A stretch of DNA of 64,000 nt, from NCBI GenBank assembly GCA_964588685.1, contig CAZPQG010000005.1:5916-69915 (forward strand), given 5' to 3'. The notes below the pieces were generated by a model. That model did not search any database. It was not told the origin of the DNA and worked only from the letters and a program-made list of their open reading frames with translations. The position numbers were made by a program, and so were the translations under genes. Shown one piece after another: positions 3,620-63,951 of this stretch (position 1 is the first letter of the stretch; each line of letters begins with the position of its first letter). Source of the stretch: an uncultured Pseudomonadales bacterium. GTDB lineage: Bacteria > Patescibacteriota > Microgenomatia > UBA1400 > PJMF01.

Positions 3620-3667
3620 ATTAAAAATAAGGTGATTTAAAATCGGTTGGATAATGCAGTATTAAAT

Positions 3668-4077
3668 TTAATTCTGATTATACCCCGCAGCTTGCTACGG
3701 GGAACAAATCAGAATGGGGTGTAGACTAATTAGGTAATAAAGTTTTTTGCTTATTATTAATTATATTATTTAAAGTTTATTCTAAATCTTTTGTTTATTT
3801 TCTGTGTTGCCTTCTCCTTAAGTGCTTGAGTGCAACACTAGTGTCGTCAGCGCCTTGAAAATAAAACAAAATCTTTATGAAATCAATGCAACTTTATTAC
3901 CCGATTAGTCTATTCAAGGGGGAATCCCCCTTGGTGTGACTGGGGGTTTAATACCCCTAGTCACAGGGGAGCAGGCTTTGTTCTTGCAAAGCAAGACAAA
4001 ACGCTGAGGGCCCTCCCTCAGAATTTATTATACTCTGATCATTGTTGAGCCCATAAAGAATCTATTTTAACAGGCGG
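3668..4077. repeat. Structured, hairpin-dense intergenic element (copy A, full length). A 23-bp module TTAATTCTGATTATACCCCGCAG sits at 3668-3690. A 34-bp module AAAACGCTGAGGGCCCTCCCTCAGAATTTATTA sits at 3997-4030, and TTAACAGGCGG follows at about 4067-4077. Both modules recur at 63845-63951.
   Basis: The same modules occur at both loci, seen directly in the sequence. Between the modules copy A carries at least four strong hairpins: CCAAGGGGGAATCCCCCTTGG, GTGACTGGGG..CCCCTAGTCAC, TTTGTTCTTGCAAAGCAAGACAAA and CTGAGGGCCCTCCCTCAG. The inverted repeat ATTCTGATT/AATCAGAAT lies at 3671-3716. Confidence 0.55.
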
Positions 4078-4227
4078 ACAAGTAGTTAATGTTATTGATT
4101 GTTATAGTTATAGAATTTATGTAATATTTTGCTGCGTCAATGTTTACTATGGCTGTTTCATTAACTGATTTTTGTTGTTATTATTAAAGATAATACTATT
4201 ACTATTTATTAACTTATATTACTGCCT

Positions 4228-5709
4228 ATGCACGTACAAAAAAAGCAAAATCAACAGATGAATGATAATCAAACACAAAACCAGCCAGTACAGCCCGGCC
4301 AGCCCGGCCAACCTGCTCAACCCGGCCAGGCTAAGCAAGCCAACCAACAAGCTCAACCCGGACAAGCAATTCAAACTGAGTCAACAAAAAAAATAACTAA
4401 GCCAAAGCAAAATCAACCGGCTCAGCAGGCGCAATCCAAACAACAGGCCCAACCGGCACAACCTAAACAACCGGCGCAGCCTAAACAAGCCAAAGCACCG
4501 GCCAAACCCAAACAGCCTGCCCAACCTGCGCAGCAACAGCAGGCTGAAAAAACACCACAGCAAGCTGCCAATACACAGCCCGAGCAAAAACAGCAGGAGG
4601 CTTCAGGCAGTCAACAAGCACAACAGGCCGCTGATAACACTGATTATGTTAAATCGTATAATCCACCTGATACAGATAAAGACTCAACTGCTCACAAACA
4701 AACAAAGCAATCAACCGAGGATGACCAGCAAGCAGGGCAGCAACCGGGCAATGACCAACAGCCTGCACAGCAAAATGAGGATCAACAGTCATCAAAGCAA
4801 AAGACTGACCAGCAGCAGAAAAAAGCTGATTTTGAAGAAGTTGATAAAAAATTAGAAGAGGAAATTCAACGCCTTGAAGAAATGGTAAATAAATTTTCCG
4901 GGGAAGCTCCAAAAGCAAAAGCTCCGGAAGAATCAGCTGAGACAGCTAACGCAGGCGAGGTAGCCGGTCAAGCTGGTAAAGGACAGGAGAAAAGCGACCA
5001 GTCAAAATCAGCCGCAGCCCAACCAAAACAACCAGGCCAGCCTGCCCAACCAAAGCAGCCCGGCCAACCTGTGCAACCAAAACAACCAGGCCAGCCCGCA
5101 CAGCCACAGCAGGCTGAAAAAACACAGCAGCAGACATCACAACAGCAGGCATCTCCCTCTGAAGCAGCTCAAACTGATCAGGATCAGACTACTCAAGCTC
5201 AAACAGCACAAGCTCAAACTTCCGGTAGTGAACAGGCAGATTCTGTTCTTCCTAACTCTGAAAAGCTTATTGATCAAAACATTTTTTATTTACTAGGTAT
5301 TCAAAATAATGATCAGCGAGAAAAAGACGATTTTTTAGGTGACCTGCAGGAGATTATTTGGGAGGATTTCTTGGAAAATGATTTGCCGGCCATGATTGAT
5401 GATGACAAGCGAGCTGAAGTTGATAAAATTTTGCAAAATGATCAAGCCGATAATTGGCAAAAACAAGAGCAAGTTTTATCTTTTTTGGAAAGAGAAATGT
5501 CAGATCTGGAACAGGTGATGGAGAAAAAGGCGTTGGTCTTTAAGCAAAAATTAGTAGAGCAAAGAATTGAAGATATGAAAGAGCAATTTGCTCAGAATAA
5601 TGATGTTTTGCAAAAGATCAAGCAAGCAGAGGTAGAGATCGGCCAAGGGAATTGGAAGTCAGGCTCAATTTTGTTAAATGAAGCCGCTGCCATGGCAGCG
5701 GAGGGCTAA
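4228..5709 (+). CDS. Large low-complexity Q/P/A/K-rich protein (predicted intrinsically disordered) with internal PKQPGQPAQ-type repeats and a C-terminal coiled-coil/acidic domain. Function unknown.
   Basis: The protein is 493 aa. QPGQPAQP / KQPAQPKQ repeat blocks occur at about aa 20-110 and aa 265-300. There is no signal peptide or TM segment. The C-terminal 150 aa are non-repetitive. The gene lies immediately upstream of the mreB-like gene. Confidence 0.45.
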   Translation: MHVQKKQNQQMNDNQTQNQPVQPGQPGQPAQPGQAKQANQQAQPGQAIQTESTKKITKPKQNQPAQQAQSKQQAQPAQPKQPAQPKQAKAPAKPKQPAQPAQQQQAEKTPQQAANTQPEQKQQEASGSQQAQQAADNTDYVKSYNPPDTDKDSTAHKQTKQSTEDDQQAGQQPGNDQQPAQQNEDQQSSKQKTDQQQKKADFEEVDKKLEEEIQRLEEMVNKFSGEAPKAKAPEESAETANAGEVAGQAGKGQEKSDQSKSAAAQPKQPGQPAQPKQPGQPVQPKQPGQPAQPQQAEKTQQQTSQQQASPSEAAQTDQDQTTQAQTAQAQTSGSEQADSVLPNSEKLIDQNIFYLLGIQNNDQREKDDFLGDLQEIIWEDFLENDLPAMIDDDKRAEVDKILQNDQADNWQKQEQVLSFLEREMSDLEQVMEKKALVFKQKLVEQRIEDMKEQFAQNNDVLQKIKQAEVEIGQGNWKSGSILLNEAAAMAAEG

Positions 5710-8502: not shown

Positions 8503-10347
8503 ATGAAAATTAAATTATTGCTGGCTCCTATTTTAGCTCTTTTTTTCTTGTTAACGGTGCGGCTGCTTCATTTACAGGTTTTACAGGGAGCGGATTATCG
8601 TGATTTGGCTGATCGCAATCGTTTTTTCAGGCAAGTTGTGCCGGCGGAACGCGGTATTATTTACGATCGTTATCAACAGCCGCTGGTTAAAAATAAAAAG
8701 CTTTATTTTAGAGATATAGGTGAGGGTTTATATTCACCGCAAGAGGCAATTACGGCTGATCAAGCGCTGCAGCTGATGACACAGCAGCCGGAAAAGGTTA
8801 GTTATGAATTGCGGCGGCATTATCTTTATCCCACGCAATTAGCACATGTCTTGGGTTATACTGCTCCGGCCACGGCGCAGGATTTAATTGGTAATAAGCA
8901 GCTGCGCACCAATGACTGGCTGGGTCGAATGGGTTTGGAACAGCAGTTCGACCACTTATTGCGTGGTCAAGATGGGCATCAGGTTTATGAGGTTAATACT
9001 TTAGGTGAAAAACAGCGCTTGTTGTCAGAAAAGAAGCCGACAGCGGGACATGATCTTTATACTAATTTTGATCCTTACTTAGCCAAGATAGCTTATGAGT
9101 CTTTAGGGCAGATGAAAGGAGCAGCAGTGGTTTTGGATGCAGAGACGGGCGGGGTGTTGGCTATGGTTAGCAAACCCTCGTTTAACCCCAATGATTTAAG
9201 CTCAATATTATTGGATGCAAGTCATGAGCAGCAGCGTCAATTAAATTTAAAAAATTATTTACAAAATGAAGATAAAGTATTTTTTAATCGAGCGGTAAAT
9301 GGTACCTATGCTCCTGGGTCAATTTTTAAGTTGGTGACAGCTTTGGCCGGTTTGGAAAATGAGGCTTTTGATGAACATCAAACAGTGTTGGACGAAGGCG
9401 TTTTAAAAGTAGGGGATTATAGTTATGCCAACTGGTTGTACACTCAGCGTGGAGCTACAGACGGTGAGATTGCTTTAGTGCGAGCTATTGCGCGCAGCAA
9501 TGATATTTATTTCTATAAGGCAGCAGAATGGACCGGGCCTACTACTATTGCCCAACAGGCCAGAGAGTTTGGCTTTGGGCAGATTGCGAATATTGAATTG
9601 CCGAGCGAAGCAGCAGGAATAGTGCCTGATCCGGTGTGGAAAGAAGAAACCACGGGAGAACGCTGGTTTTTAGGCAACACTTATCACTTTGGAATTGGTC
9701 AAGGTGATATGTTAGTGTCGCCGCTGCAAGCTGCGCAGATGGTGCAGGCTTTATTTAAAGAAGGAGAAAGGTGCCAGCCCAGGTTAATAGATAATGCTCA
9801 AACAGGGATTAGTGAACAACAGCTAACAGACAACTGTAAAGGCATGGCTTTAGATCAAAAAAATTTAGAACTGGTATTAAAAGGCATGATTGCTGCCTGT
9901 CAGCCGGGCGGCACAGCTTCTTTGTTGTTTGATTTAAATCAAGGTGTTGTGGAAGCCAATCAGGCAGAAAGCGCTTATGATTTATTGCAGCAGGGAGCAG
10001 TGGCTTGCAAAACCGGTACTTCAGAATTTGGCGGTTTAGATGAACAGGACCGCTACAAAACCCACGGCTGGTTTGTGGCAGCGACCACCATAGAAGTGGA
10101 GGAAATGGTTAAAGCATTGGAGCAAAGAGCAGAGGCAGCAACATCCAGAGAAGACGAAATGACAATCAGCGGCCAGTTAACAGCTGATGAATTAGAACAA
10201 TGGGCAGCACAAATTAAAGAACAGGGCTTTCCTAGCAAGGTGGTATTAACAGCCTTGGTGGAGAGCGATGAAGCCATTCCTTATAAGGAAGGATCACACC
10301 ACGCAGCTCCGATTGTGAAAGAATTGTTGGAATGGATGGGGAAGTAG
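8503..10347 (+). CDS. mrdA: Penicillin-binding protein 2 (elongasome transpeptidase).
   Basis: N-terminal TM segment. SxxK motif (GSIFK), SxN (RSND) and KTG (ACKTGTSE). The gene is adjacent to mreBCD. Confidence 0.85.
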   Translation: MKIKLLLAPILALFFLLTVRLLHLQVLQGADYRDLADRNRFFRQVVPAERGIIYDRYQQPLVKNKKLYFRDIGEGLYSPQEAITADQALQLMTQQPEKVSYELRRHYLYPTQLAHVLGYTAPATAQDLIGNKQLRTNDWLGRMGLEQQFDHLLRGQDGHQVYEVNTLGEKQRLLSEKKPTAGHDLYTNFDPYLAKIAYESLGQMKGAAVVLDAETGGVLAMVSKPSFNPNDLSSILLDASHEQQRQLNLKNYLQNEDKVFFNRAVNGTYAPGSIFKLVTALAGLENEAFDEHQTVLDEGVLKVGDYSYANWLYTQRGATDGEIALVRAIARSNDIYFYKAAEWTGPTTIAQQAREFGFGQIANIELPSEAAGIVPDPVWKEETTGERWFLGNTYHFGIGQGDMLVSPLQAAQMVQALFKEGERCQPRLIDNAQTGISEQQLTDNCKGMALDQKNLELVLKGMIAACQPGGTASLLFDLNQGVVEANQAESAYDLLQQGAVACKTGTSEFGGLDEQDRYKTHGWFVAATTIEVEEMVKALEQRAEAATSREDEMTISGQLTADELEQWAAQIKEQGFPSKVVLTALVESDEAIPYKEGSHHAAPIVKELLEWMGK

Positions 10348-15460: not shown

Positions 15461-16846
15461 ATGACGAGGACGAAGAGTAGAGCTCGAAATTTTAGCGGTG
15501 CTGCATTTACTAATTTCCAGGCCTGCTTTAATTTTATGAAACTTGCTTTGGTTGTTCCTCATATTTTTATGAACCAGGAGCTGCTGCCTCGGGTTATTTT
15601 TTCGCCCGGACAGTTGGCTTTAACTTTAAGTCATGGTTTGGCTGAGCTGGGTCATGAAGTTACGCTTTTCACTCCCGGTTCAGTGGCTGATTTGCTTGAA
15701 AGCAATCATGTCCATAATGTAACTGCTGATTTAGCTTTTTTTGCAGCAGAGCTGGAGCAGCGGCAAGATGATTATCTGGCATTATTGAAAAAGCACCCCT
15801 TAACTTTTATTACTTTGTCGCGCCAAGTGCAGTCGGAATTAACAGCCCAAGCTTATCAGTTGGCTAACGAGGGTCGATTTGATCTGGTCCATGTGTGGTG
15901 TAATGAAGAAGAGCATGCTGTGATTAACGCCCGCTTTTGTCAAAAGCCGGTTGTTTTTAATCACCATGAGCCGTTTAACTTTTTAGTGCGCTATCGTTCT
16001 ATTTTTCCCAAATACGCTGCTTTAAATTGGATTTCTATCTCTTTTGCCCAGCGGCAAACTTTTGCGCAGCAGCAGGCTTTTACCGAACAAGCAAGAGAGG
16101 AGCGGCAGGCGGGCAGTTTGCAGCAGCGAAGCCAACAATTACCGGCAGTAAATTGGGTAGGCAATGTCTATCACGGCCTGAATCTTCAACAGTTTCAGTT
16201 TAATTCTCAACCTAAAGACTATTTATTGTATATGGGTCGAGTTATCCGGCCCAAGGGTGTACATTATGCTATTGTCTGCGCCAAACAGCTGCAAATGAAA
16301 TTGAAGATTGCCGGCAAACATTATGCCGGCCACAGTAAGGACCAGTATTGGCAGGAGTTTGTTGAACCGGAGTTGGACCATGATCTAATTGAGTATGTCG
16401 GCTATATTAAAGAGCAGTGTGTAAAGCAAAAATTATTGGGCCAGGCTCAGGTTTTACTGATGCCTTCAATTTGGCAGGAGCCGTTTGGCTTGGTGATGTT
16501 GGAAGCCATGGCTTGCGGCACACCGATCGCTGGTTTTGAAGAAGGCGCTGTGGCTGAAGTGGTGAAGCCTAAAAAAAGCGGCGCTTTAGCAGCCTATCAG
16601 GCGGAAGAAAAAGTATTTAAAAACGGTAAAGCAGTCAATAAAAGTTGGCAGCAGCTGCAGCAAGATTCTCAATTTCAAGAAAATGTAAAAGCATTGGCTC
16701 AGGCCGCAGCACAAGCCAAGCAAGTTGATCGAGCCGGCTGCAGAGCTTATTTTGCCGCCAATTTTTCCAGCCAACAGATGTGTCAAGGCTATGAGCAGAT
16801 TTATAAAAAGTTAATTGACAAGCAAAACAATAAAAATAGAAGTTAG
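15461..16846 (+). CDS. Glycosyltransferase, GT4/group-1 family. The true start is probably the ATG at 15536 (MKLALVVPHIF...).
   Basis: The C-terminal EPFGLVMLEAMACGTPIAG is a GT4-type EX7E motif region. The N-terminal LALVVPHIF resembles a GT-B Rossmann start. Confidence 0.65.
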   Translation: MTRTKSRARNFSGAAFTNFQACFNFMKLALVVPHIFMNQELLPRVIFSPGQLALTLSHGLAELGHEVTLFTPGSVADLLESNHVHNVTADLAFFAAELEQRQDDYLALLKKHPLTFITLSRQVQSELTAQAYQLANEGRFDLVHVWCNEEEHAVINARFCQKPVVFNHHEPFNFLVRYRSIFPKYAALNWISISFAQRQTFAQQQAFTEQAREERQAGSLQQRSQQLPAVNWVGNVYHGLNLQQFQFNSQPKDYLLYMGRVIRPKGVHYAIVCAKQLQMKLKIAGKHYAGHSKDQYWQEFVEPELDHDLIEYVGYIKEQCVKQKLLGQAQVLLMPSIWQEPFGLVMLEAMACGTPIAGFEEGAVAEVVKPKKSGALAAYQAEEKVFKNGKAVNKSWQQLQQDSQFQENVKALAQAAAQAKQVDRAGCRAYFAANFSSQQMCQGYEQIYKKLIDKQNNKNRS

Positions 16847-16944
16847 ATAACTGAAAAACGTAGAAAATTGAGTTTTAGAGAGCTGGAAAATACAGAGAAT
16901 TGGGGAAAATAGAGAGCTGTAAAAGCGTTAATACGGCAGAAACA

Positions 16945-17769
16945 TCAAATCACCACCAAGTCTGCTTTAATATGCGGGTGAGATTCATAATTTACCAGCT
17001 TAAAATCATTAATCGTAAAGTCGTCAATATCTTTCACTTCAGGATTAACCCACAATAGGGGCCTTTTTTTTGGCTTTCTGTGAATTTGCTCCTCGGCTTG
17101 CCGTAAATGATTTTTATATAGATGCAAGTCGCCGATCGTATGCACAAACTCGCGCGCTTCCAAGCCTGTTACTTGAGCCACCATCAACAGTAATAGTGAA
17201 TATTGACTTATATTAAAGGGTAGACCTAAAAAAGCGTCAGCGCTGCGTTGATACAACTGCAAGCGTAATTTACCCTTAGTGACGTTGAATTGAAAAAAAG
17301 TGTGACACGGAGGCAGCCTCATTTCGTCAAGTTGAGCCGGATTCCAAGCTGAAACCAGCATAGCTTTGGAATAAGGCTGGGTTTTTATTTCTTGGATAAC
17401 ATTTTTAAGCTGATCAATATGGCCGCCCTCATAATCAGGCCATTTTCGCCATTGATAGCCGTAAACCGGTCCCAGCTCACCATCTTCTTCAGCAAAATCA
17501 TCCCAATAGTGAATTTTTTTCTCTTGCAGCGGTTTTATATTAGTGCTGCCTGATACAAACCATAATAGTTCATTGGTCATGGTCTTAAAAGGCATTTTTT
17601 TTGTGGTTAGAATGGGAAAACCACGCCGGAAGTCAAAACGCATTTGATAGCCAAAAGTGCTTTTGATGTCGTGTACACCGCGAGTTTTTTTACTTTTGCC
17701 GTTTTCCAAAATGTGTTTGAGGGCTTGTAGGTATTGCTGCATGGTGTTTAGTATAGCATTGTCAAACAA
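16945..17769 (-). CDS. thyA: Thymidylate synthase ThyA. The start is probably the internal Met, MQQYLQAL..., near 17742.
   Basis: RMLPPCHTFFQF active-site Cys. SAWNPAQLDEM and DLHLYKNH conserved blocks. Confidence 0.9.
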   Translation of the reverse strand: MFDNAILNTMQQYLQALKHILENGKSKKTRGVHDIKSTFGYQMRFDFRRGFPILTTKKMPFKTMTNELLWFVSGSTNIKPLQEKKIHYWDDFAEEDGELGPVYGYQWRKWPDYEGGHIDQLKNVIQEIKTQPYSKAMLVSAWNPAQLDEMRLPPCHTFFQFNVTKGKLRLQLYQRSADAFLGLPFNISQYSLLLLMVAQVTGLEAREFVHTIGDLHLYKNHLRQAEEQIHRKPKKRPLLWVNPEVKDIDDFTINDFKLVNYESHPHIKADLVVI

Positions 17770-17888
17770 AGAATAAAACTGAGTTTAGAACTAAATAATT
17801 GTTTAAAAAAGAATGTTGATAAGCGATTTTTTTGCCGCTTGACCGTTATAGATTATGGGTATATATTCATAATTAGTATTAACTAATT

Positions 17889-18218
17889 ATGACAAAGGAG
17901 GCAAATATGCCAGCATTAGATCAAACAGGACCAAGAGGTCAGGGGCCAATGACCGGTCGCGGCTTAGGTGCTTGCAATGATGGCCCGGGTTTAGGTATGG
18001 GGCGAGGAAGAGGCTATGGACAGGGTTTCGGACGAGGTTTAGCTAGAGGTTGGGGTAGAGGTTACCCTTGTTATTTGATAGGGCGTCATTTTTTTGCGCC
18101 GGAAAATCAAATAGCTATGCTAGAGCAGCAAAAAGCTATGATGGTAGAAGAAAAAGAGATGCTTGAGCGGGAGATTACAGCTGTAGACGAAGAAATTGAA
18201 GCTTTGCAAGAAGAATAA
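17889..18218 (+). CDS. DUF5320-like small protein: a Gly/Arg-rich N-terminus followed by a coiled-coil.
   Basis: MPALDQTGPRGQGPMTGRGLGAC... then GRGRGYGQGFGRG, and a C-terminal heptad-repeat segment. The DUF5320 assignment comes from remembered family features. Confidence 0.5.
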   Translation: MTKEANMPALDQTGPRGQGPMTGRGLGACNDGPGLGMGRGRGYGQGFGRGLARGWGRGYPCYLIGRHFFAPENQIAMLEQQKAMMVEEKEMLEREITAVDEEIEALQEE

Positions 18219-18261
18219 TATTTTATGTGCTGTAGTCAGTTCAATTTTTAGCTGATTGTGT

Positions 18262-18310
18262 AAAAACAGCCTGTGTTTATGCTAGAATAATTTTAAACCA
18301 GGCTGTTTTT
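18262..18310 (+). terminator. Candidate long-loop hairpin/terminator after the DUF5320 gene.
   Basis: AAAAACAGCCTG...(25 nt)...CAGGCTGTTTTT has 12-bp perfect arms and ends in a T-run. Confidence 0.35.
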
Positions 18311-18398
18311 GTGATTAGGTTACTTTTGGAAGCGTTAATCACAAAGGGCTGCCGATGAATTATACTGCTGTTAGTTTTTTAAATTTAATAATCACACT

Positions 18399-18680
18399 AT
18401 GCCGAGACCTAAACTTTGTAAAAGAATTAGATTTGATCCTGAAGTATGCTATTTTAAACCTAAAGGGGTTCCTTTACGCGAATTGCAAGTGGTAGAGTTA
18501 TCTTTAGAAGAAGTTGAAGCTCTACGCTTAAAAAACATTAAAAATTTGTCACAAATAGAATGTGCTCAAAAAATGAACACTTCTCAGAGCACTGTGCAAA
18601 GAATTTTAAGCTCTGCTTATCAAAAAGTTTCACAAGCTTTAATTGAGGGCCAAGCCATTCGCATCAGTCAATCAGAGTAA
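18399..18680 (+). CDS. DUF134/UPF0251 family putative DNA-binding protein.
   Basis: MPRPKLCKRIRFDPEVCYFKPKGVPLRELQVVELSLEEVEALRL, plus a sigma-70 region-4-like HTH (QKMNTSQSTVQRIL). Confidence 0.6.
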   Translation: MPRPKLCKRIRFDPEVCYFKPKGVPLRELQVVELSLEEVEALRLKNIKNLSQIECAQKMNTSQSTVQRILSSAYQKVSQALIEGQAIRISQSE

Positions 18681-18801
18681 CAAAGTTGGCTAATTAGGTA
18701 AGAGAGTTAGCTAATCATTATGATAAGAATTTTGGCTAAGAGTAATCTTTGTTTTCATCTACTCAATTTTTAAACTAAACCTTTTTACTTTCCAATCAAA
18801 C

Positions 18802-19776
18802 TTAATTTATTTTCTTTACGGTAATGCCTGCCTGCTCCAGCATTTTTTTACCGTAACCGGCTGAGTGGTCATGCTGATAAACTACTGCCTGCAAATTAGT
18901 TCTAGCTAGCATCCGAGCGCAATTAGGGCAGGGCAGCAGATTAATGTATAGGCAGGCGCTGTCCAACTTCACTCCCCGGCGCAAGGCTTTAAGCACGAGT
19001 TCAACTTCAGCATGATTGGTGTCGCAATATTGCAAATCTTGAGGAGGTGTTAAATGTTTTTCCTTGCTTGCGCCCTGATGAAGCATGTAAGTTTCATAAG
19101 GCACAACTTGATTATGGGCTGACAGTACAAAACGCTGTTTTTTAGCTAGTACCGCTGCAGTTTGAAAAGTATAGTCAAAAGAGAGTCGGCTTTCTAGTGT
19201 TGCCAGCTGCATCAGTTCTGATTCAGCATATTGCTGTTTGCGGGCAGGTTCAATGGCCGGCATATTTTTTTTAATTTGTTCTAAATAGCTTAAGGCTTCA
19301 GTCTTATCCACAAATGAGCTGACTAATTTATAAGGAAGCTGTCTCTTTTTTAATTGGCGAAATTCTGCGCGGTAATGAAAAGCTCGATGCCAAGAGCCGT
19401 TAATACCGATTACAGCGGCCCAATTGCCTTGTTGAATAAGGCGTGGCGCTTCAGCTTGAGGGTAGAGTAGAGTCTTAATTTGTTCGCCGTCGCTGTGTTT
19501 AATTTTGCCGCTCCTGTATTTCAGTTGCTTTAGAGCTGAAGTTAATGGCGCTAGACTTAAGGCCTTAAAAGGCAACGAGTTTTCTAAGCCGGCAATATAT
19601 TCTTCTTCAATACAACCCCAAATTAATTTTTTATCAGTATTGCTTAATAATTGGCGTGACAGCTGCCTGATACGTTCTCCTGAAATTTCTCGGGGGCCTA
19701 GAATTAAAATTGGCTGCTCTGTGGTCAGCTGTTTTAAGTCTTGAGGAGTGAGATCAGACCAAGAGTAGTGATTCAT
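18802..19776 (-). CDS. Fusion protein: an N-terminal domain of about 220 aa of unknown function, plus a C-terminal dCMP/cytidine deaminase zinc-binding domain.
   Basis: The C-terminus carries HAEVELVL...PCPNCARML, the CDA-fold HAE...PCxxC motif. The N-terminal 220 aa have no recognisable motif. Confidence 0.6.
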   Translation of the reverse strand: MNHYSWSDLTPQDLKQLTTEQPILILGPREISGERIRQLSRQLLSNTDKKLIWGCIEEEYIAGLENSLPFKALSLAPLTSALKQLKYRSGKIKHSDGEQIKTLLYPQAEAPRLIQQGNWAAVIGINGSWHRAFHYRAEFRQLKKRQLPYKLVSSFVDKTEALSYLEQIKKNMPAIEPARKQQYAESELMQLATLESRLSFDYTFQTAAVLAKKQRFVLSAHNQVVPYETYMLHQGASKEKHLTPPQDLQYCDTNHAEVELVLKALRRGVKLDSACLYINLLPCPNCARMLARTNLQAVVYQHDHSAGYGKKMLEQAGITVKKIN

Positions 19777-19840
19777 AACAAATGGAGTTGATGATTAATA
19801 TTTTGATTGGTATTTTTTGATATTTTTCTAGTTGATATTT

Positions 19841-20416
19841 TTATGGTTGATATTTTTTTTCAAATCTTTTGAGAATTCTTTTAATTTTTTTGGCCTCCTT
19901 TTTGTAAAGAGCTGCGTTTTCCAACGGGGTATACCGCAGCCGCCGGTAATTCCATTGGCATAAATCAGGCTCATCAAAAGGAATAAACTGCATATGCAGA
20001 TGATCAGTAACTGTCATTTGGGCTTTCTCGCCTCCTTCACGAATTAAACTCCACATACCTTTGCAGCCATGCACTTGTTTGATAATTTTTTTGGCTAAGT
20101 AGGCAAACTTGCGCATTGTTTCCCATTGCTTTGGCGTGAGTTCTTTGGGGGATCGAATATGCCGGCGGGGGATAGCCATGAGTTGGCCGTCAATATAGGG
20201 ATACAAATTAATCGTCAATACTATTTCATTTTCCTCCAGCAGAATATATTTGTCTTTTAAGTCGCAGAAGACGCACTTGCCGGTGTTTTGCCAAATTTGA
20301 TCATAATGCCCCTTTGCCCGGGCATTTTTTTTATAGTTCTGACCCGTTTTTTGATGCGAGCTTTTAGAATTAGAAGAGCTGTGTGCCATGGCTTGATTAG
20401 ATGGGTTGTACGGCAT
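19841..20416 (-). CDS. HIT-superfamily protein, HxHxQ variant (GalT/Ap4A-phosphorylase-like branch), with a low-complexity N-terminal extension.
   Basis: CVFCDL (HIT N-terminal CxFC). ...GQLMAIPRRH. DHLHMQFIP carries HxHxQ instead of HxHxH. Confidence 0.5.
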   Translation of the reverse strand: MPYNPSNQAMAHSSSNSKSSHQKTGQNYKKNARAKGHYDQIWQNTGKCVFCDLKDKYILLEENEIVLTINLYPYIDGQLMAIPRRHIRSPKELTPKQWETMRKFAYLAKKIIKQVHGCKGMWSLIREGGEKAQMTVTDHLHMQFIPFDEPDLCQWNYRRLRYTPLENAALYKKEAKKIKRILKRFEKKYQP

Positions 20417-20461
20417 GACTTGCTAAAATAGAAAATAATGCCGATAATACGCTGCTAGTTG

Positions 20462-21040
20462 TTATTTAATTTCGGCGTCTTTTAACGGATTTTTCAAAGG
20501 ATTTTTTCCGTTTTTAAGATATTCTTTTAAAATTTCATTGAGTTGAGCGCTGACACCCTTTTTTAAAATTTTGGTAGTGGAAATAAAAGGGGATTGCCGG
20601 TCAACCAATTTTACCTGGCCGCCGTTTCTGACAACTGTGTTATATTCCGGTGATTCTTTATAGCCTTTATTCCATTCCTCCCTAACAGTGACATAAAAAT
20701 CAGGTTTTAGTTGTTCTAAAGTCGGCTGATTACTCATTTGAGGGACAATAGTGACTAAATCAACAAAGCGGACGTAGCTCAGCATTTCAGCTCGGATTTT
20801 TTCATCTAAAATTGGTCGGTTAGGGCCTTTTAAAGTGCTAATGGTTTGATTGGAACTGATGCCGACCACTAAGACGTCAGCCAGTTTTTTAGCCTCATGC
20901 AGGTACCTTACTTGCCCGACGTGCAGCATATCCCAGGCGCCGGCAGTATAGACAATAGTTTTGCCTTTGGCTCTGATTTTTTCTCCGGCTTTTTTAATTT
21001 GTTGAGGTGCGATTAAGCGCTTTTTCCAGATGAAGGACAT
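20462..21040 (-). CDS. Cytidylyltransferase-superfamily sugar/alcohol-phosphate nucleotidyltransferase, closest in pattern to RfaE domain II or TagD.
   Basis: TIVYTAGAWDMLHVGQVRYLHEAKKLADVLVVGISSNQTISTLKG aligns with RfaE-II [45 protein letters not shown]. C-terminal GGQVKLVD...STTKILKK resembles GGEV..L....STTNIIKK. Confidence 0.65.
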   Translation of the reverse strand: MSFIWKKRLIAPQQIKKAGEKIRAKGKTIVYTAGAWDMLHVGQVRYLHEAKKLADVLVVGISSNQTISTLKGPNRPILDEKIRAEMLSYVRFVDLVTIVPQMSNQPTLEQLKPDFYVTVREEWNKGYKESPEYNTVVRNGGQVKLVDRQSPFISTTKILKKGVSAQLNEILKEYLKNGKNPLKNPLKDAEIK

Positions 21041-21095
21041 AGTTTAAGCTTACTTTTAATAATTTTTAAGTTTGTTTTAGTCGTATTAAAAAACT

Positions 21096-21128
21096 TTACC
21101 CGCACAAGCGAGCGGGCAGCAGACAGGA
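21096..21128 (-). terminator. Weak candidate terminator between the APH-like kinase gene and the nucleotidyltransferase gene.
   Basis: On the minus strand: CCCGC-TCGCTTGT-GCGGG, followed by TAAAGTTTTTT. Confidence 0.3.
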
Positions 21129-21168
21129 TTAGCTCCAACCTATTTATACCAGTTTTGATAAAGATAAA

Positions 21169-22368
21169 TCAACTGCTGTTATTGCTAGTTGACAATAAAT
21201 TCTGTTTTAACAACCAATTTTTAGTACGCACAAAATGTTCGTTTTGAGGCAAAAATTGATAGGGATTGTGCCGTAAAAATTTATAAAAATCATAGAATAG
21301 AAAAAAAGTTGTTAAAGACTGCAACAATTTAGGTTCCGGTAGTTGCTGCTGGCCGCGCTTGGCATAACCGGAGTTGAGAAAGTATTTTTTAACTTGGAGT
21401 TCAGTTTTGTATTGGCAGTCAATCAGTAAAAAGGCCAGTGTTCTGGCCACGTCGAGTACTCTTGGTCCTAGAGCTGCTTTTTCAAAATCTAAAATACCGC
21501 TCACAGTCAGTAATTCTTGGCTTGATTGATTGTCATCCGGGCTTGATTGATTATGATTTGTTTGATTTTTTTGCCTAGTTTTTTGAGGATCTAAAATAAA
21601 TTTTTTGGCAGCCGGATTCTTTTGTACAAAAGTGTATGGCTTATTTTGAAATAAAATATTGCCGCGCACAAAATCTAAATGTAAAATTTGTTGATTTGGT
21701 AAATTTGTAAGATTTTTTAAAACTTGTTGCAAATAAGGAAAGACGTTAAGTTTTGGGTTAAGTTTTAGTTTTTCTTTAAGTGCTTTTTGCACCCCTTCTT
21801 TATAAAAATATGTATTCATTACGTTTAATTTTTCCTCTAAAATCAATCTTTCTCGTTTTATTAAATTGAACTGCTTTGGCTTAAATGCTGCTAAATCGTG
21901 ATGCAGCTGACCCAAAACTTGGCCCAACAGTTTAATGTGCTTCATAGTATAATTGTCCCAGTTAATAGTAGAGCCGGGTAGGTAGTTATACAAGCAGCAA
22001 TAGTATTTGCTGTTGGAATGAGTAATTTGAAGGATGGATTTTAGCCGGCCGGCTTTTTTGTTATTAGCAGCCTTATGAGCGGCTGTGCCGGGAGTGTTAG
22101 TTAATCCAGAGTAGGTTTGGCGGGTCGGCCAGCCTTGCCGGGCTAAGTAATTTGAGACAAGATTGGCTGTTTTAATTTTAGGCAGGATATCAGGTTCATT
22201 TTTGTAAAAAATTAAGGCCAATTTTTTCTCATCCTTTAGTTCCAAAGGAATAATATTGTTGCGATATCCGGTTTGTGGTTGTAAAATTCGTATAGCTTTT
22301 GTCTCTAAGCCATAAGCAGCCAGCACTTTTAAGATTAACGCTTGGTTATGATAAGGCTTGTTAAGCAT
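21169..22368 (-). CDS. Phosphotransferase of the APH/choline-kinase/homoserine-kinase-II fold. Substrate unknown.
   Basis: HLDFVRGNILF is the HxDxxxxN catalytic-loop motif. ILDFEKAALGP is a DFG-like DxE/D segment. The protein is 399 aa. Confidence 0.55.
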   Translation of the reverse strand: MLNKPYHNQALILKVLAAYGLETKAIRILQPQTGYRNNIIPLELKDEKKLALIFYKNEPDILPKIKTANLVSNYLARQGWPTRQTYSGLTNTPGTAAHKAANNKKAGRLKSILQITHSNSKYYCCLYNYLPGSTINWDNYTMKHIKLLGQVLGQLHHDLAAFKPKQFNLIKRERLILEEKLNVMNTYFYKEGVQKALKEKLKLNPKLNVFPYLQQVLKNLTNLPNQQILHLDFVRGNILFQNKPYTFVQKNPAAKKFILDPQKTRQKNQTNHNQSSPDDNQSSQELLTVSGILDFEKAALGPRVLDVARTLAFLLIDCQYKTELQVKKYFLNSGYAKRGQQQLPEPKLLQSLTTFFLFYDFYKFLRHNPYQFLPQNEHFVRTKNWLLKQNLLSTSNNSS

Positions 22369-63033: not shown

Positions 63034-63801
63034 ATGAGGCGAAGAGAAAAATTTGTACTTTCTACTATCTTTTTATCAATATTGTTTTTTGCCATTCAAT
63101 ATGTGAGCTTAGATTGGCGCTATCTGGCTATTGCCGGTTTAACGGTTGTGACTTATATTGTGGCTTCTTTTGCTTTGTCAGACGATTTAGAGTTTCATGA
63201 GCGCTTAACTATTGTGCCGCTGCCGACTATGTATGCCATGGCAGTGGCATTATTTTACTTTTTATTACCGGATAATTTTTTAAGCCAATTATTAATTTTA
63301 ATTTTATTCAGCATCGGACTTTATGCCTTATTTTTAACAGCTAATATTTACTCTGTTGTTAAGGGCAAAACAATTCAGTTATTGTATGCAGCCCGCACCA
63401 TCGGTTTTTTCTTTACACTTTTAACTTCTTTATTACTTACCAATACTATTTTATCTTTAAATTTACCTTTCTGGGCAATAGGGTTGTTGGTGGGATTGGC
63501 TCATTTCCCTTTACTTTTCATATCTTTGTGGGCGGTTAATTTTGAAGATTTTATTGCTAAAGATATTTTAATTTATTCTTCAGTCATCAGTTTATTTTTG
63601 ATGGAATTTGCCATCTTATTATCTTTGATTCCAATGCCAGTGTGGAATGCTTCTTTATTCGTGATCGGGGTCGTTTATTTAGTATTGGGTTTGCTGCAAT
63701 CTTATTTAAGAGGCAGGTTGTTTAAAAATACTATAGCTGAATATTCTTTAATGGCCGCTATTTTAGCTTTTCTCTTCATCATTTTTTTTCCTTTTAAGTA
63801 A
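63034..63801 (+). CDS. Polytopic membrane protein, hypothetical.
   Basis: About 7 TM helices. No motif recognised. Confidence 0.35.
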   Translation: MRRREKFVLSTIFLSILFFAIQYVSLDWRYLAIAGLTVVTYIVASFALSDDLEFHERLTIVPLPTMYAMAVALFYFLLPDNFLSQLLILILFSIGLYALFLTANIYSVVKGKTIQLLYAARTIGFFFTLLTSLLLTNTILSLNLPFWAIGLLVGLAHFPLLFISLWAVNFEDFIAKDILIYSSVISLFLMEFAILLSLIPMPVWNASLFVIGVVYLVLGLLQSYLRGRLFKNTIAEYSLMAAILAFLFIIFFPFK

Positions 63802-63844: not shown

Positions 63845-63951
63845 TTAATTCTGATTATACCTCGCAGTTAATTCTGATTATACCTCGCAGTTTGGCCATA
63901 TTTAACGGATAAAACACTGAGGGCCCTCCCTCAAAATTTATTAACAGGCAG
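63845..63951. repeat. Second, shortened copy of the 3668-4077 element. The 23-bp module TTAATTCTGATTATACCTCGCAG is tandemly duplicated (63845-63867 and 63868-63890). AAAACACTGAGGGCCCTCCCTCAAAATTTATTAACAGGCAG follows at 63911-63951. The window ends 49 bp later.
   Basis: Direct comparison by eye. The two loci share the end modules but not the hairpin-rich roughly 300-bp core, nor a 37-bp segment present in copy A. Confidence 0.55.

What the first reader, a model, noticed from the sequence alone, without database searches (positions are those of the whole stretch)
63845..63951. Tandemly duplicated 23-mer plus hairpin module forms a reduced copy of the element at the window edge
TTAATTCTGATTATACCTCGCAG occurs twice in direct tandem. 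It is followed by the CTGAGGGCCCTCCCTCAA hairpin module and TTAACAGGCAG, all shared with 3668-4077. The window ends 49 bp later, so this copy may continue beyond it. The two copies bracket nearly the whole window as direct repeats. The DNA between them is core housekeeping sequence, so an integrated element is unlikely. A dispersed repeat family is more plausible.
Basis: seen in the sequence. Interest (0 to 1): 0.5.

Follow-up and report, generated by a model that had tools for sequence, protein, structure and literature searches.

The report
Decayed copy of a structured repeat
The flagged sequence is a broken-down remnant of a previously undescribed ~230-base, hairpin-rich repeat element that is scattered in many copies through the genomes of a group of ultra-small (Patescibacteria/CPR) bacteria; the remnant is ordinary, the family is new.

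Summary
The 23-mer occurs twice in exact tandem at 63845-63890. It and a 33-nt hairpin module recur at 3668-4030 (0.00 matches expected by chance). Both loci belong to a multi-copy family of about 230 nt, made of six hairpins (P1-P6) joined by conserved linkers. I found at least 34 strong matches in eight Patescibacteria genomes, up to nine per draft genome. None was found in viral contigs, and Rfam has no family for it.

The helices covary strongly: 29 of 56 pairs change on both sides. Orthologous sites are filled in some relatives and empty in others. Two copies in one genome are 99% identical. The sense strand is the G-rich strand in 30 of 33 copies. There are no terminal inverted repeats and no target duplication.

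Copy A (3668-4066) is full length and carries a nested 187-nt TA-flanked inverted-repeat element. The flagged copy B kept only the first ~23 nt, a decayed P4 and the P5 hairpin. It lost about 105 nt between short direct repeats. The 23-mer duplication is a strain polymorphism; another sample has one copy. B ends inside the window.

Best reading: a non-autonomous, probably single-strand-mobilised element. A functional multi-copy RNA remains possible.

The parts
63845..63867 (+). Copy B: first 23-mer. It is an extra tandem copy of the element's 5' end (the 5' strand of P1 up to the apex, CGCAG).
   Evidence: Exact tandem. It is absent from contig L002 of another sample, which has a single 23-mer. 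The unit is bounded by AGTT...AGTT microhomology, read directly from the sequence.
63868..63890 (+). Copy B: second 23-mer. This is the original 5' end of the element: TTAAT, then the P1 5' strand ATTCTGATTATACC, then TCGCAG.
   Evidence: It aligns with the 5' end of all family members.
63891..63916 (+). Copy B: TTTG (end of linker J3/4), a decayed P4 helix (GCCATATTTAACGGAT) and linker ATAAAACA. The internal deletion junction lies at 63890/63891.
   Evidence: The model aligns this stretch to model positions 144-170. It is 21/25 identical to TTTGTCCATATCTAATGGACAAAAC of L016 and L024.
63917..63934 (+). Copy B: P5 hairpin (6-bp stem, CCCT loop), terminator-like on both strands.
   Evidence: Terminator-like on + (tail AAATTTATTA) and on - (tail TGTTTTATCC). 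It corresponds to the invariant P5 of the family (helix 9).
63935..63951 (+). Copy B: 3' terminus AAATTTATT plus the tail AACAGGCAG that is shared only with copy A. The P6 module between them is missing.
   Evidence: The family 3' end is ...GAATTTAT.
3668..3715 (+). Copy A: P1 hairpin (ATTCTGATT 3671-3679 pairs with AATCAGAAT 3707-3715; inner stem CCCCG/CGGGG).
   Evidence: Covariation in helices 1-3.
3724..3910 (+). Nested 187-nt element inside copy A, with ~24-nt terminal inverted repeats and a TA on each side (3722-3723 and 3911-3912). It is not part of the family consensus.
   Evidence: It is absent from L003 and all other full copies. The inverted-repeat arms appear. A homologous insert, in the opposite orientation, sits at the same position of the host element in L041 (81% over 78 nt).
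3915..4021 (+). Copy A core: P2 3915-3933, P3 3936-3964, linker ACAGGGGAGCAGGCTTTG 3963-3980, P4 3982-3996, linker CAAAACG 3997-4003, P5 4004-4021.
   Evidence: 82.5% identical to L003 although the surrounding DNA is otherwise unrelated. Model hit of 127.6 bits. P5 is terminator-like on both strands.
4022..4078 (+). Copy A: diverged 3' module (the P6 position, ending ...GAATCTAT at 4066) plus the tail TTTAACAGGCGG shared with B.
Evidence: MAFFT places it at the 3' module in the family alignment, and the model hit 3859-4087 spans model positions 1-253.
15482..15537 (+). Empty site. The orthologous intergenic spacer in the related MAG160 genome (L024) carries a full-length element.
   Evidence: tblastx synteny of L024 with window 15536-22074. 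The two sequences are compared.

Best explanation
B is a decayed copy of a ~230-nt structured intergenic repeat element specific to a clade of Patescibacteria.

The intact element reads, 5' to 3':
- P1, a long hairpin (ATTCTGATTATACCCCG...CGGGGAACAAATCAGAAT)
- linker GGGGGU
- P2 (CTAGGGGGATTCCCCCTAG)
- P3, a variable helix
- invariant linker ACAGGGGAGCAGGCTTTG
- P4
- linker CAAAACG
- P5 (CTGAGGGG-loop-CCCCTCAG)
- P6 (AAATGAGC...GCGAATTT), followed by AT.

The family is best explained as a non-autonomous mobile element. This is inferred. It has no ORF, no terminal inverted repeats and no target duplication beyond an ambiguous AT. It is filled or empty at orthologous sites, and its orientation follows the G-rich strand. 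This fits movement of one strand as a folded single-stranded intermediate, in the style of HUH/IS200-IS605 elements, better than cut-and-paste of duplex DNA. On this view the hairpins are kept because only folded copies propagate. P5 followed by CGUUUUGUC is a strong intrinsic terminator on the antisense strand. That would also select against insertions facing local transcription.

B itself descends from a full copy like the one at the same locus in MAG160. This is shown by comparison. It lost about 105 nt (P1 3' strand, P2, P3 and most of J3/4) by deletion between the imperfect direct repeats GCAGCTTG (P1 apex) and GCAGGCTTTG (J3/4). It also lost P6. In some strains it then gained a 23-nt slippage duplication between AGTT microhomologies. 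At most, the P5 hairpin remains functional, as a bidirectional terminator after the DUF5656 gene.

Confidence by part: about 0.9 that B is a decayed member of a dispersed structured repeat family; about 0.6 that the family is or was mobile; about 0.25-0.3 for the single-strand (HUH-type) route specifically.
For: - Family size: one hit in JGI metagenomes (L003). The GTDB scan gave 29 real hits in 7 MAGs plus 4 chance hits. The covariance model found 34 strong matches plus remnants in 344 kb.
- Structure: 91.8% of cells paired against 83.3% in shuffles (0 of 500 shuffles as high). 29 of 56 pairs change on both sides. Slid controls give 39-50%.
- Filled versus empty sites. The rho-M23 spacer is filled in L003 and L007 and empty in L004, L005 and L006 (gene map; spacer sequences of L003, L007, L004 and L006). 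After removing the element, L003's flank aligns base for base in length with the empty site. The spacer upstream of radA is filled in L009 and L035 and is a 2-nt spacer in L004, L006 and L007. The window site 15482-15537 is empty but filled in L024.
- The element is more conserved than its hosts: A versus L003 is 82-90% identical with no other DNA similarity between the two.
- L016 and L024 are 99% identical within one genome.
- The ends do not match as inverted repeats, and the base left of the terminal AT varies while the right end is fixed.
- Orientation: the sense strand is G-rich in 30 of 33 copies. Downstream genes are co-oriented 20:6.
- G-U outnumbers A-C 16 to 3 in the well-aligned helices.
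- Downstream genes are unrelated housekeeping genes.
- B specifically: synteny with L016, a P4 of the L016 type, a single 23-mer in L002, and similar short forms in L009 and L026.
- P5 is terminator-like.
Against: - No transposase, reverse transcriptase or other candidate mobilising gene was found next to any copy or repeated among the fetched loci. Whole genomes could not be searched.
- Most copies differ by 10-25% yet keep their helices. That also fits selection on each copy as a functional RNA.
- The two terminal hairpins, P1 and P6, are unlike each other, whereas IS200/IS605 ends usually carry similar hairpins.
- The strand bias is confounded with gene orientation.
- Several sites are occupied in more than one lineage (rho-M23, radA, downstream of DUF5656). 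This could mean old vertical inheritance with loss rather than insertion.
- 15-nt invariant single-stranded linkers are more than a transposase hairpin signal would need.
Confidence: 0.6

Rival explanations
1. The family is a functional structured RNA, either a multi-copy small RNA or a cis-acting RNA module co-transcribed with neighbouring genes (processing, stability, insulation or antitermination). It would be kept at each locus by selection and spread by duplication, recombination and horizontal transfer. B would then be a dead paralogue.
For: - Six helices covary, and the single-stranded linkers are invariant.
- G-U exceeds A-C on the sense strand, 16 to 3.
- Helix apices tolerate insertions, as in functional RNAs: P1 apex, P4 apex, P5 apex and J1/2.
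- Tandem G-A motifs (GAGC...GCGA) occur in P6 and in one P3 variant.
- Copies sit in the sense orientation 3-30 nt before start codons, so they must be transcribed with those genes.
- There is a weak resemblance to the P2-P3 region of Rfam Clostridiales-2 (22.9 bits).
Against: - Neighbouring genes have no common function.
- Some copies are antisense to both neighbours: L017, L019 and L038.
- No conserved promoter was found (flank columns are unconserved).
- Close relatives do without the element at the same sites.
- Truncated, internally deleted and nested-insertion copies are common.
- No Rfam family reaches threshold.
Confidence: 0.25
2. The family is a SINE-like retroelement copied through RNA by a reverse transcriptase supplied in trans (target-primed reverse transcription), which would account for fragments that keep only the 3' end.
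For: - Solo 3' ends lie directly 5' of full copies in L017, L022 and L035, and in tandem in L004.
- The element is in the sense orientation relative to transcription.
- There are no inverted repeats.
- The structure is conserved on the transcribed strand.
Against: - No reverse transcriptase was seen in any locus.
- There is no target duplication of the usual length.
- Neither an Rfam group II intron model nor any other ribozyme model matches.
- Short forms such as B are internal deletions, not 5' truncations.
- L041, which looked 5'-truncated, is in fact interrupted by the nested element at a contig end.
Confidence: 0.1
3. The two window copies are attL/attR-type direct repeats of a 60-kb integrated element, mobilised by the tyrosine recombinase 2 kb downstream of B.
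For: A and B are direct repeats 60 kb apart. A phage-integrase-family gene lies at L001 10164-11141. In another genome a copy lies 19 nt upstream of the orthologous recombinase (L028).
Against: - The interval holds core genes, including MreB, MreC, ribosomal protein S2, EF-Ts and tRNAs.
- GC skew is uniform across it.
- The recombinase is a conserved syntenic Xer-like gene (74% amino-acid identity with MAG160).
- The repeats occur at more than 30 unrelated loci.
- B and A differ in their P4 type.
Confidence: 0.02
4. B is just an ordinary intrinsic terminator plus a chance or slippage repeat, with no family relationship.
For: P5 in B scores as a terminator on both strands. B as a whole is not significantly structured.
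Against: The 23-mer and the 33-nt module match copy A and the family ends far beyond chance. The intervening 16 nt matches a family P4 variant. A full copy occupies the same locus in MAG160.
Confidence: 0.02

Closest known systems
BOX elements of Streptococcus pneumoniae and ERIC/IRU-type enterobacterial intergenic repeats (from my own knowledge of the literature)
   Same: Both are small, ORF-less, multi-copy intergenic repeats with a modular build. Modules can be missing or duplicated. They fold into stable stem-loops, lie close to gene ends, and no dedicated transposase is known for them.
   Different: The sequence is unrelated and the host phylum is different (Patescibacteria). This family has six separate helices with invariant single-stranded linkers rather than one long imperfect palindrome or A/B/C boxes. 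It also shows a strong strand bias and carries an internal antisense terminator.
IS200/IS605-derived non-autonomous elements (PATEs), mobilised by a Y1 HUH transposase
   Same: No terminal inverted repeats and no target duplication. Hairpins lie right at both ends. Empty sites are seamless. The orientation is tied to the G-rich (lagging-strand-template) strand. The helices tolerate G-T on one strand.
   Different: No TnpA or TnpB was found near any copy. The two end hairpins, P1 and P6, are dissimilar. The left-flank motif is only loosely conserved (TTNAT, whose AT is part of P1). There is a large conserved interior that a transposase signal would not need. No Rfam TnpB- or IscB-associated RNA model matches.
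Classical MITEs such as Correia elements of Neisseria (derived from DDE transposons)
   Same: Size, copy number, intergenic location, presence/absence polymorphism, embedded terminator signals, and co-transcription with neighbours.
   Different: The defining terminal inverted repeats and target-site duplication are absent here. The 187-nt element nested in copy A (3724-3910) does have both (inverted ends and flanking TA) and is the MITE-like one.
Rfam Clostridiales-2 RNA (RF02937)
   Same: A local resemblance over P2-P3: AAU-GGGGGU, then a G5/C5 hairpin, a second hairpin and GUC-A-AGGG-A.
   Different: The score is 22.9 bits against a gathering score of 58.6. It covers under a third of the element and comes from a different phylum. 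This is not membership.

Membership tests
Classical MITE (DDE-transposon derivative) | Terminal inverted repeats | tested here: not met
   The left end (A)TTCTGATTATACC and the reverse complement of the right end (ATAAATTCGCAAATT) do not match.
Classical MITE (DDE-transposon derivative) | Target-site duplication of fixed length | tested here: not met
   Only AT is shared by both junctions. The base 5' of it varies while the right end is fixed. The empty versus filled rho-M23 sites show no duplication of 2 nt or more.
Classical MITE (DDE-transposon derivative) | Short, non-coding, multi-copy, with insertion polymorphism | tested here: met
   (no conserved ORF).
IS200/IS605-type non-autonomous element (PATE) | No inverted repeats, no target duplication, seamless empty site | tested here: met
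IS200/IS605-type non-autonomous element (PATE) | Similar subterminal hairpins at the left and right ends, recognised by one TnpA | tested here: inconclusive
   Hairpins P1 and P6 are at the ends, but their sequences differ. P2 and P5 resemble each other but are internal.
IS200/IS605-type non-autonomous element (PATE) | Insertion 3' of a fixed tetra- or pentanucleotide | tested here: inconclusive
   The left flank reads TT[A/T/G/C]AT, but the AT pairs within P1. The empty rho sites read GCTGT^T.
IS200/IS605-type non-autonomous element (PATE) | Orientation bias relative to replication | tested here: inconclusive
   The sense strand is G-rich in 30 of 33 copies, but this is confounded with gene orientation, and no replication origin is mapped.
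IS200/IS605-type non-autonomous element (PATE) | An autonomous partner encoding a Y1 transposase with the same ends in the same genome | not testable with these tools
   Only ~8-kb slices of the MAGs could be fetched. No such ORF occurs in them.
Any Rfam RNA family (release 15) | Score at or above the family's gathering threshold | tested here: not met
   Window, copy A, copy B, the L001 extension and the compact copy L019 were all searched. The best score is 22.9 bits against 58.6.
Riboswitch or gene-specific 5' leader | Consistent association with one gene family or pathway, always upstream and in sense | tested here: not met
   Judged from their translated sequences (not family-searched), the downstream genes look like tpiA, gltX, rpmA, radA, dnaG, fusA, pth, xer and glycosyltransferases. 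Six copies face convergent genes, and three (L017, L019, L038) are antisense to both neighbours.
Intrinsic (Rho-independent) terminator (applies to P5 only) | G+C-rich hairpin followed by a T-run | tested here: met
   Met on the antisense strand in all copies examined (CGTTTTGTC). Met on the sense strand as well in window copies A and B. Function was not tested.
attL/attR of an integrated island | Direct repeats bounding foreign DNA next to its integrase | tested here: not met
   The interior is core genome with uniform skew. The recombinase is a syntenic Xer-like gene.

The most novel reading that the evidence does not exclude
The element is a new class of structured RNA that is itself the active part of a mobile system in CPR bacteria. 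Examples would be an ORF-less ribozyme or retroelement, or a guide or bridge-type RNA module used in trans by a recombinase encoded once elsewhere in the genome. The invariant linkers (ACAGGGGAGCAGGCUUUG, CAAAACG) would then be catalytic or protein-binding cores rather than passive transposase signals.
Probability: 0.15. Interest if true: 0.85.

Novelty: new variant of a known kind. Interest (0 to 1): 0.5.

Why it matters
Patescibacteria have tiny, streamlined genomes, and I am not aware of repeat families described in them (two literature searches, turned up nothing relevant). Here a ~230-nt element is kept in up to nine or more copies per draft genome. It has six covarying helices and invariant linkers, and it sits directly against start and stop codons of core genes. 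That makes it either an unusually well-preserved selfish element or an unrecognised RNA with a genome-wide role. Either way it gives a concrete covariance model for annotating these MAGs. It explains some assembly breaks, since copies lie at contig ends (L011, L029, L033, L041). It also offers natural filled and empty site pairs for studying how DNA moves in organisms that cannot yet be manipulated genetically. The flagged locus itself is only a decayed remnant and has little importance of its own.

Tried and rejected
- Rfam searches at gathering and E-value thresholds on the window, both copies, the downstream extension and a compact copy gave nothing usable.
- tRNA/tmRNA scan: only two ordinary tRNAs, far from the copies.
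- Viral contig scans with three patterns gave 0 hits.
- The exact 21-mer scan of GTDB gave 0 hits. It succeeded only after I redesigned the pattern from the A/L003/L007 comparison.
- A pseudoknot between the P1 apex (AGCUUGCU) and J3/4 (AGCAGGCU) was considered and dropped, because the apex varies or is replaced in many copies.
- A small ORF starting at the conserved ATG of P6 was rejected. The ATG is lost or followed by early stops in several copies, and it covaries as part of a stem.
- A sigma-70 promoter inside the element: no match in copy A or B, and one borderline 9-of-12 match with its first hexamer at the 3' end of L034. An antisense TTGTTC-N19-TATAAT across P1 was noticed, but its spacer is too long and variable.
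- TTAACAG as a genome-wide motif: it is common by chance, although it is enriched just after the 3' end of five copies.
- Seeking an empty site for copy A through MreB homologues failed. The nearest relative in the protein database is 47% identical.
- The window's own 95-kb NCBI contig could not be retrieved.
- Literature searches found no description of such an element.
- All-vs-all comparison of ORFs in the fetched loci found no repeated transposase-like gene.

Full report
**1. The observation**

The sequence is as described. TTAATTCTGATTATACCTCGCAG lies at 63845-63867 and again at 63868-63890. A one-mismatch copy lies at 3668-3690. With up to three mismatches there are three matches in the window against 0.00 expected from shuffles. 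The 33-nt module around the CTGAGGG-CCCT-CCCTCA hairpin occurs at 63911-63943 and 3998-4030, two matches against 0.00 expected.

Copy A (3660-4090) folds far better than shuffles on both strands (z = -7.6 and -9.0). Copy B does not (z = +0.49). No Rfam family and no tRNA or tmRNA explains either locus.

**2. What lies beyond the window**

The gene just upstream of B (63034-63801, DUF5656) is also carried by contig L001. L001 is a near-identical strain: 38 mismatches in 8346 nt, with window position = L001 position + 55654. After B come about 2 kb without credible ORFs, then a Xer-like tyrosine recombinase and a tRNA.

Nothing in that 2 kb resembles copy A or the family model, even with filters off. 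So B ends at about 63951.

**3. A family, not a pair**

The 21-mer core gave no hit in GTDB representatives or viral contigs. It gave one hit in JGI metagenomes, L003. L003 carries a compact ~170-nt version between rho and a LysM/M23 peptidase gene. It equals copy A without A's segment 3720-3912.

A and L003 are 82-90% identical over the element. The rest of the two sequences shares no detectable DNA similarity, and homologous proteins are at most about 50% identical.

Rho homologues of L003 led to relatives. L007 has a diverged copy at the same site. L004, L005 and L006 have an empty site.

I then scanned GTDB with a pattern built from the blocks conserved in A, L003 and L007: GGGGAGCAGG-N10-40-AAAACRCTGAGG. 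It returned 33 loci. Of these, 29 are real copies in seven Patescibacteria MAGs, with 9, 6, 4, 3, 3, 2 and 2 per MAG. The other 4 are chance hits in unrelated phyla, about the number expected. Five of these MAGs are titled 'uncultured Pseudomonadales', but the named relatives of their Rho proteins are Patescibacteria.

A covariance model, R1, then found 34 strong matches. Three of these were full copies that the pattern had missed. It also found several remnants. In the 64-kb window only A matches.

**4. Anatomy and structure**

The consensus runs:
- P1: ATTCTGATTATACCCCG - variable apex - CGGGGAACAAATCAGAAT
- linker GGGGGT
- P2: CTAGGGGGATTCCCCCTAG
- P3: four different helix types
- linker ACAGGGGAGCAGGCTTTG
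- P4: at least four helix types
- linker CAAAACG
- P5: CTGAGGGG-loop-CCCCTCAG
- P6: AAATGAGC - AT-rich - GCGAATTT, followed by AT

On the model-based alignment of 30 full copies:
- 91.8% of cells are paired, against 83.3% in shuffles (0 of 500 shuffles as high).
- 29 of 56 pairs show changes on both sides.
- Sliding the partners by 1-3 columns drops pairing to 39-50%.

The alignment was fitted to the structure, which inflates these numbers somewhat. However, whole-helix replacements in P3 and P4 are visible in the raw sequences.

At paired columns G-U outnumbers A-C by 40 to 30 overall, and by 16 to 3 in the reliably aligned helices. The strand I call sense is therefore the one under structural constraint.

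P5 followed by CGTTTTGTC scores as an intrinsic terminator on the antisense strand in every copy examined. In the window copies it also scores on the sense strand.

**5. Evidence that the family moves or has moved**

- Filled and empty orthologous sites:
  - rho-M23
  - the 2-nt spacer before radA in L004, L006 and L007, against a full copy in L009 and L035
  - window 15482-15537, empty where MAG160 (L024) has a copy
- L016 and L024, at different loci of MAG160, are 99% identical. Other intragenomic pairs are 83-92% identical.
- The ends are not inverted repeats, and there is no target duplication beyond an ambiguous AT. When the L003 element is removed, the flank has the same length as the empty site of L004.
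- The sense strand is the G-rich strand of the surrounding locus in 30 of 33 copies. The window's + strand has positive skew throughout. Downstream genes are co-oriented 20:6 and upstream genes 16:10.
- Neighbouring genes are unrelated core genes. Many start 3-30 nt after the element. This rules out a gene-specific leader and implies co-transcription.

No transposase-like or otherwise repeated ORF is present in the fetched loci.

**6. What copy B is**

MAG160 contig L016 is syntenic with the end of the window: YebC, DUF5656, element, about 2.2 kb non-coding, then Xer at 74% amino-acid identity. It carries a full-length element at that locus. The L016 element starts 2 nt after the stop codon, whereas B starts 45 nt after it.

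The model aligns B's TTTGGCCATATTTAACGGATAAAAC to the end of J3/4, P4 and J4/5. This stretch is 21/25 identical to TTTGTCCATATCTAATGGACAAAAC, the P4 of L016. It is unlike A's P4.

So B keeps the P1 5' strand up to CGCAG, then jumps to TTTG of J3/4. The deletion of about 105 nt lies between the imperfect direct repeats GCAGCTTG (P1 apex) and GCAGGCTTTG (J3/4).

Comparable short forms exist in L009 and in L026. The L009 deletion lies between two copies of a mini-palindrome, TCCCGCTTAGCGGGAC.

B also lacks P6.

The 23-nt tandem duplication is bounded by AGTT microhomology. It is absent from L002, a contig from another sample that encodes the identical protein. It is therefore a recent slippage event.

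P5 and the tail TTAACAGGC are shared by A and B but not by L016. This points to exchange between copies within the genome.

**7. Copy A's extra segment**

Positions 3724-3910 form a separate 187-nt element with ~24-nt inverted ends and a TA on each side. A homologous insert sits at the same linker of the host element in L041, in the opposite orientation. There the contig ends inside it. This nested element looks like a classical MITE and inserted independently at the same spot.

**8. Interpretation**

It is shown that B is a decayed member of a dispersed, structured, strand-biased repeat family, and that the family is absent from Rfam.

It is inferred that the family is a non-autonomous mobile element moved as a folded single strand. 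The lack of inverted repeats and target duplication, the seamless empty sites and the strand bias point that way.

The missing partner gene, the dissimilar end hairpins and the long invariant linkers leave room for a functional-RNA reading. I rate that reading at about 0.25.

The island and attachment-site reading and the 'just a terminator' reading are contradicted.

**9. Verdict**

The flagged locus is an ordinary remnant. The family behind it is a new variant of the small intergenic repeat elements known from other bacteria, and it merits a proper census. Interest 0.5.

Noticed in passing
window 3724-3910 (TA at 3722-3723 and 3911-3912); L041 389-463: A second repeat family: a 187-nt element with ~24-nt terminal inverted repeats and flanking TA, nested in linker J1/2 of copy A. 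A homologous insert, inverted, sits at the same host position in another genome, where the contig breaks inside it.
   Followed up: partly
L001 8300-10160 (just beyond the window end); L016 3390-5610: About 2 kb with no credible ORF lies between copy B and a Xer-like recombinase gene, and the same arrangement occurs in MAG160. Only three short islands are conserved (L001 8611-8646, 9067-9106, 9431-9535). The region contains TTGTGAAAA three times (the 11-mer TTTGTGAAAAC twice) at 9814-9845 and TGATATAGTT x2 at 8625-8644. There is no Rfam hit. It could be a replication origin or terminus region, or an unknown RNA.
   Followed up: partly
L021, L025, L036, L042, L035 (P1 apex); L020 and L042 7383-7707 (P4 apex); L034 (P5 apex); L009 6033-6307 (inside J3/4): Two mini-palindromes of 15-20 nt, TCCCGCTTAGCGGGA and CCTGCC(TA)CCGGTAGGCAGG, recur as insertions at different helix tips and once inside the invariant linker of the element. 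They look like a still smaller layer of hairpin insertions.
   Followed up: no
right flanks of window A (4068), window B (63941), L009 ~8262, L039 (two), L021: TTAACAG(G/C) follows the element's 3' end within 0-25 nt in five copies, far more often than its background frequency suggests. It could be a target preference or an extra module.
   Followed up: partly
L017, L022, L035 left flanks; L004 1-70; L006 5665-5801: Isolated pieces of the element occur. Solo P6 3' halves lie directly before full copies and in tandem. In L006 a solo P1 hairpin abuts an inverted P6.
   Followed up: partly
window 4228-5709: A 493-aa ORF directly downstream of copy A is extremely rich in Q/P/A/K, with 9-nt periodic DNA repeats (PGQ/PKQ units) and no Pfam match. 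It precedes the MreB- and MreC-like genes.
   Followed up: no
L011-L042 record titles: Five TPA MAG assemblies that carry the element are titled 'uncultured Pseudomonadales'. Their gene content and Rho proteins are those of Patescibacteria, so the taxonomy label is probably wrong.
   Followed up: partly
L019 7076-7147: The P2-P3 region gives a sub-threshold match to Rfam Clostridiales-2 (22.9 bits; gathering score 58.6), with the same layout of G-rich flanks around two hairpins.
   Followed up: no
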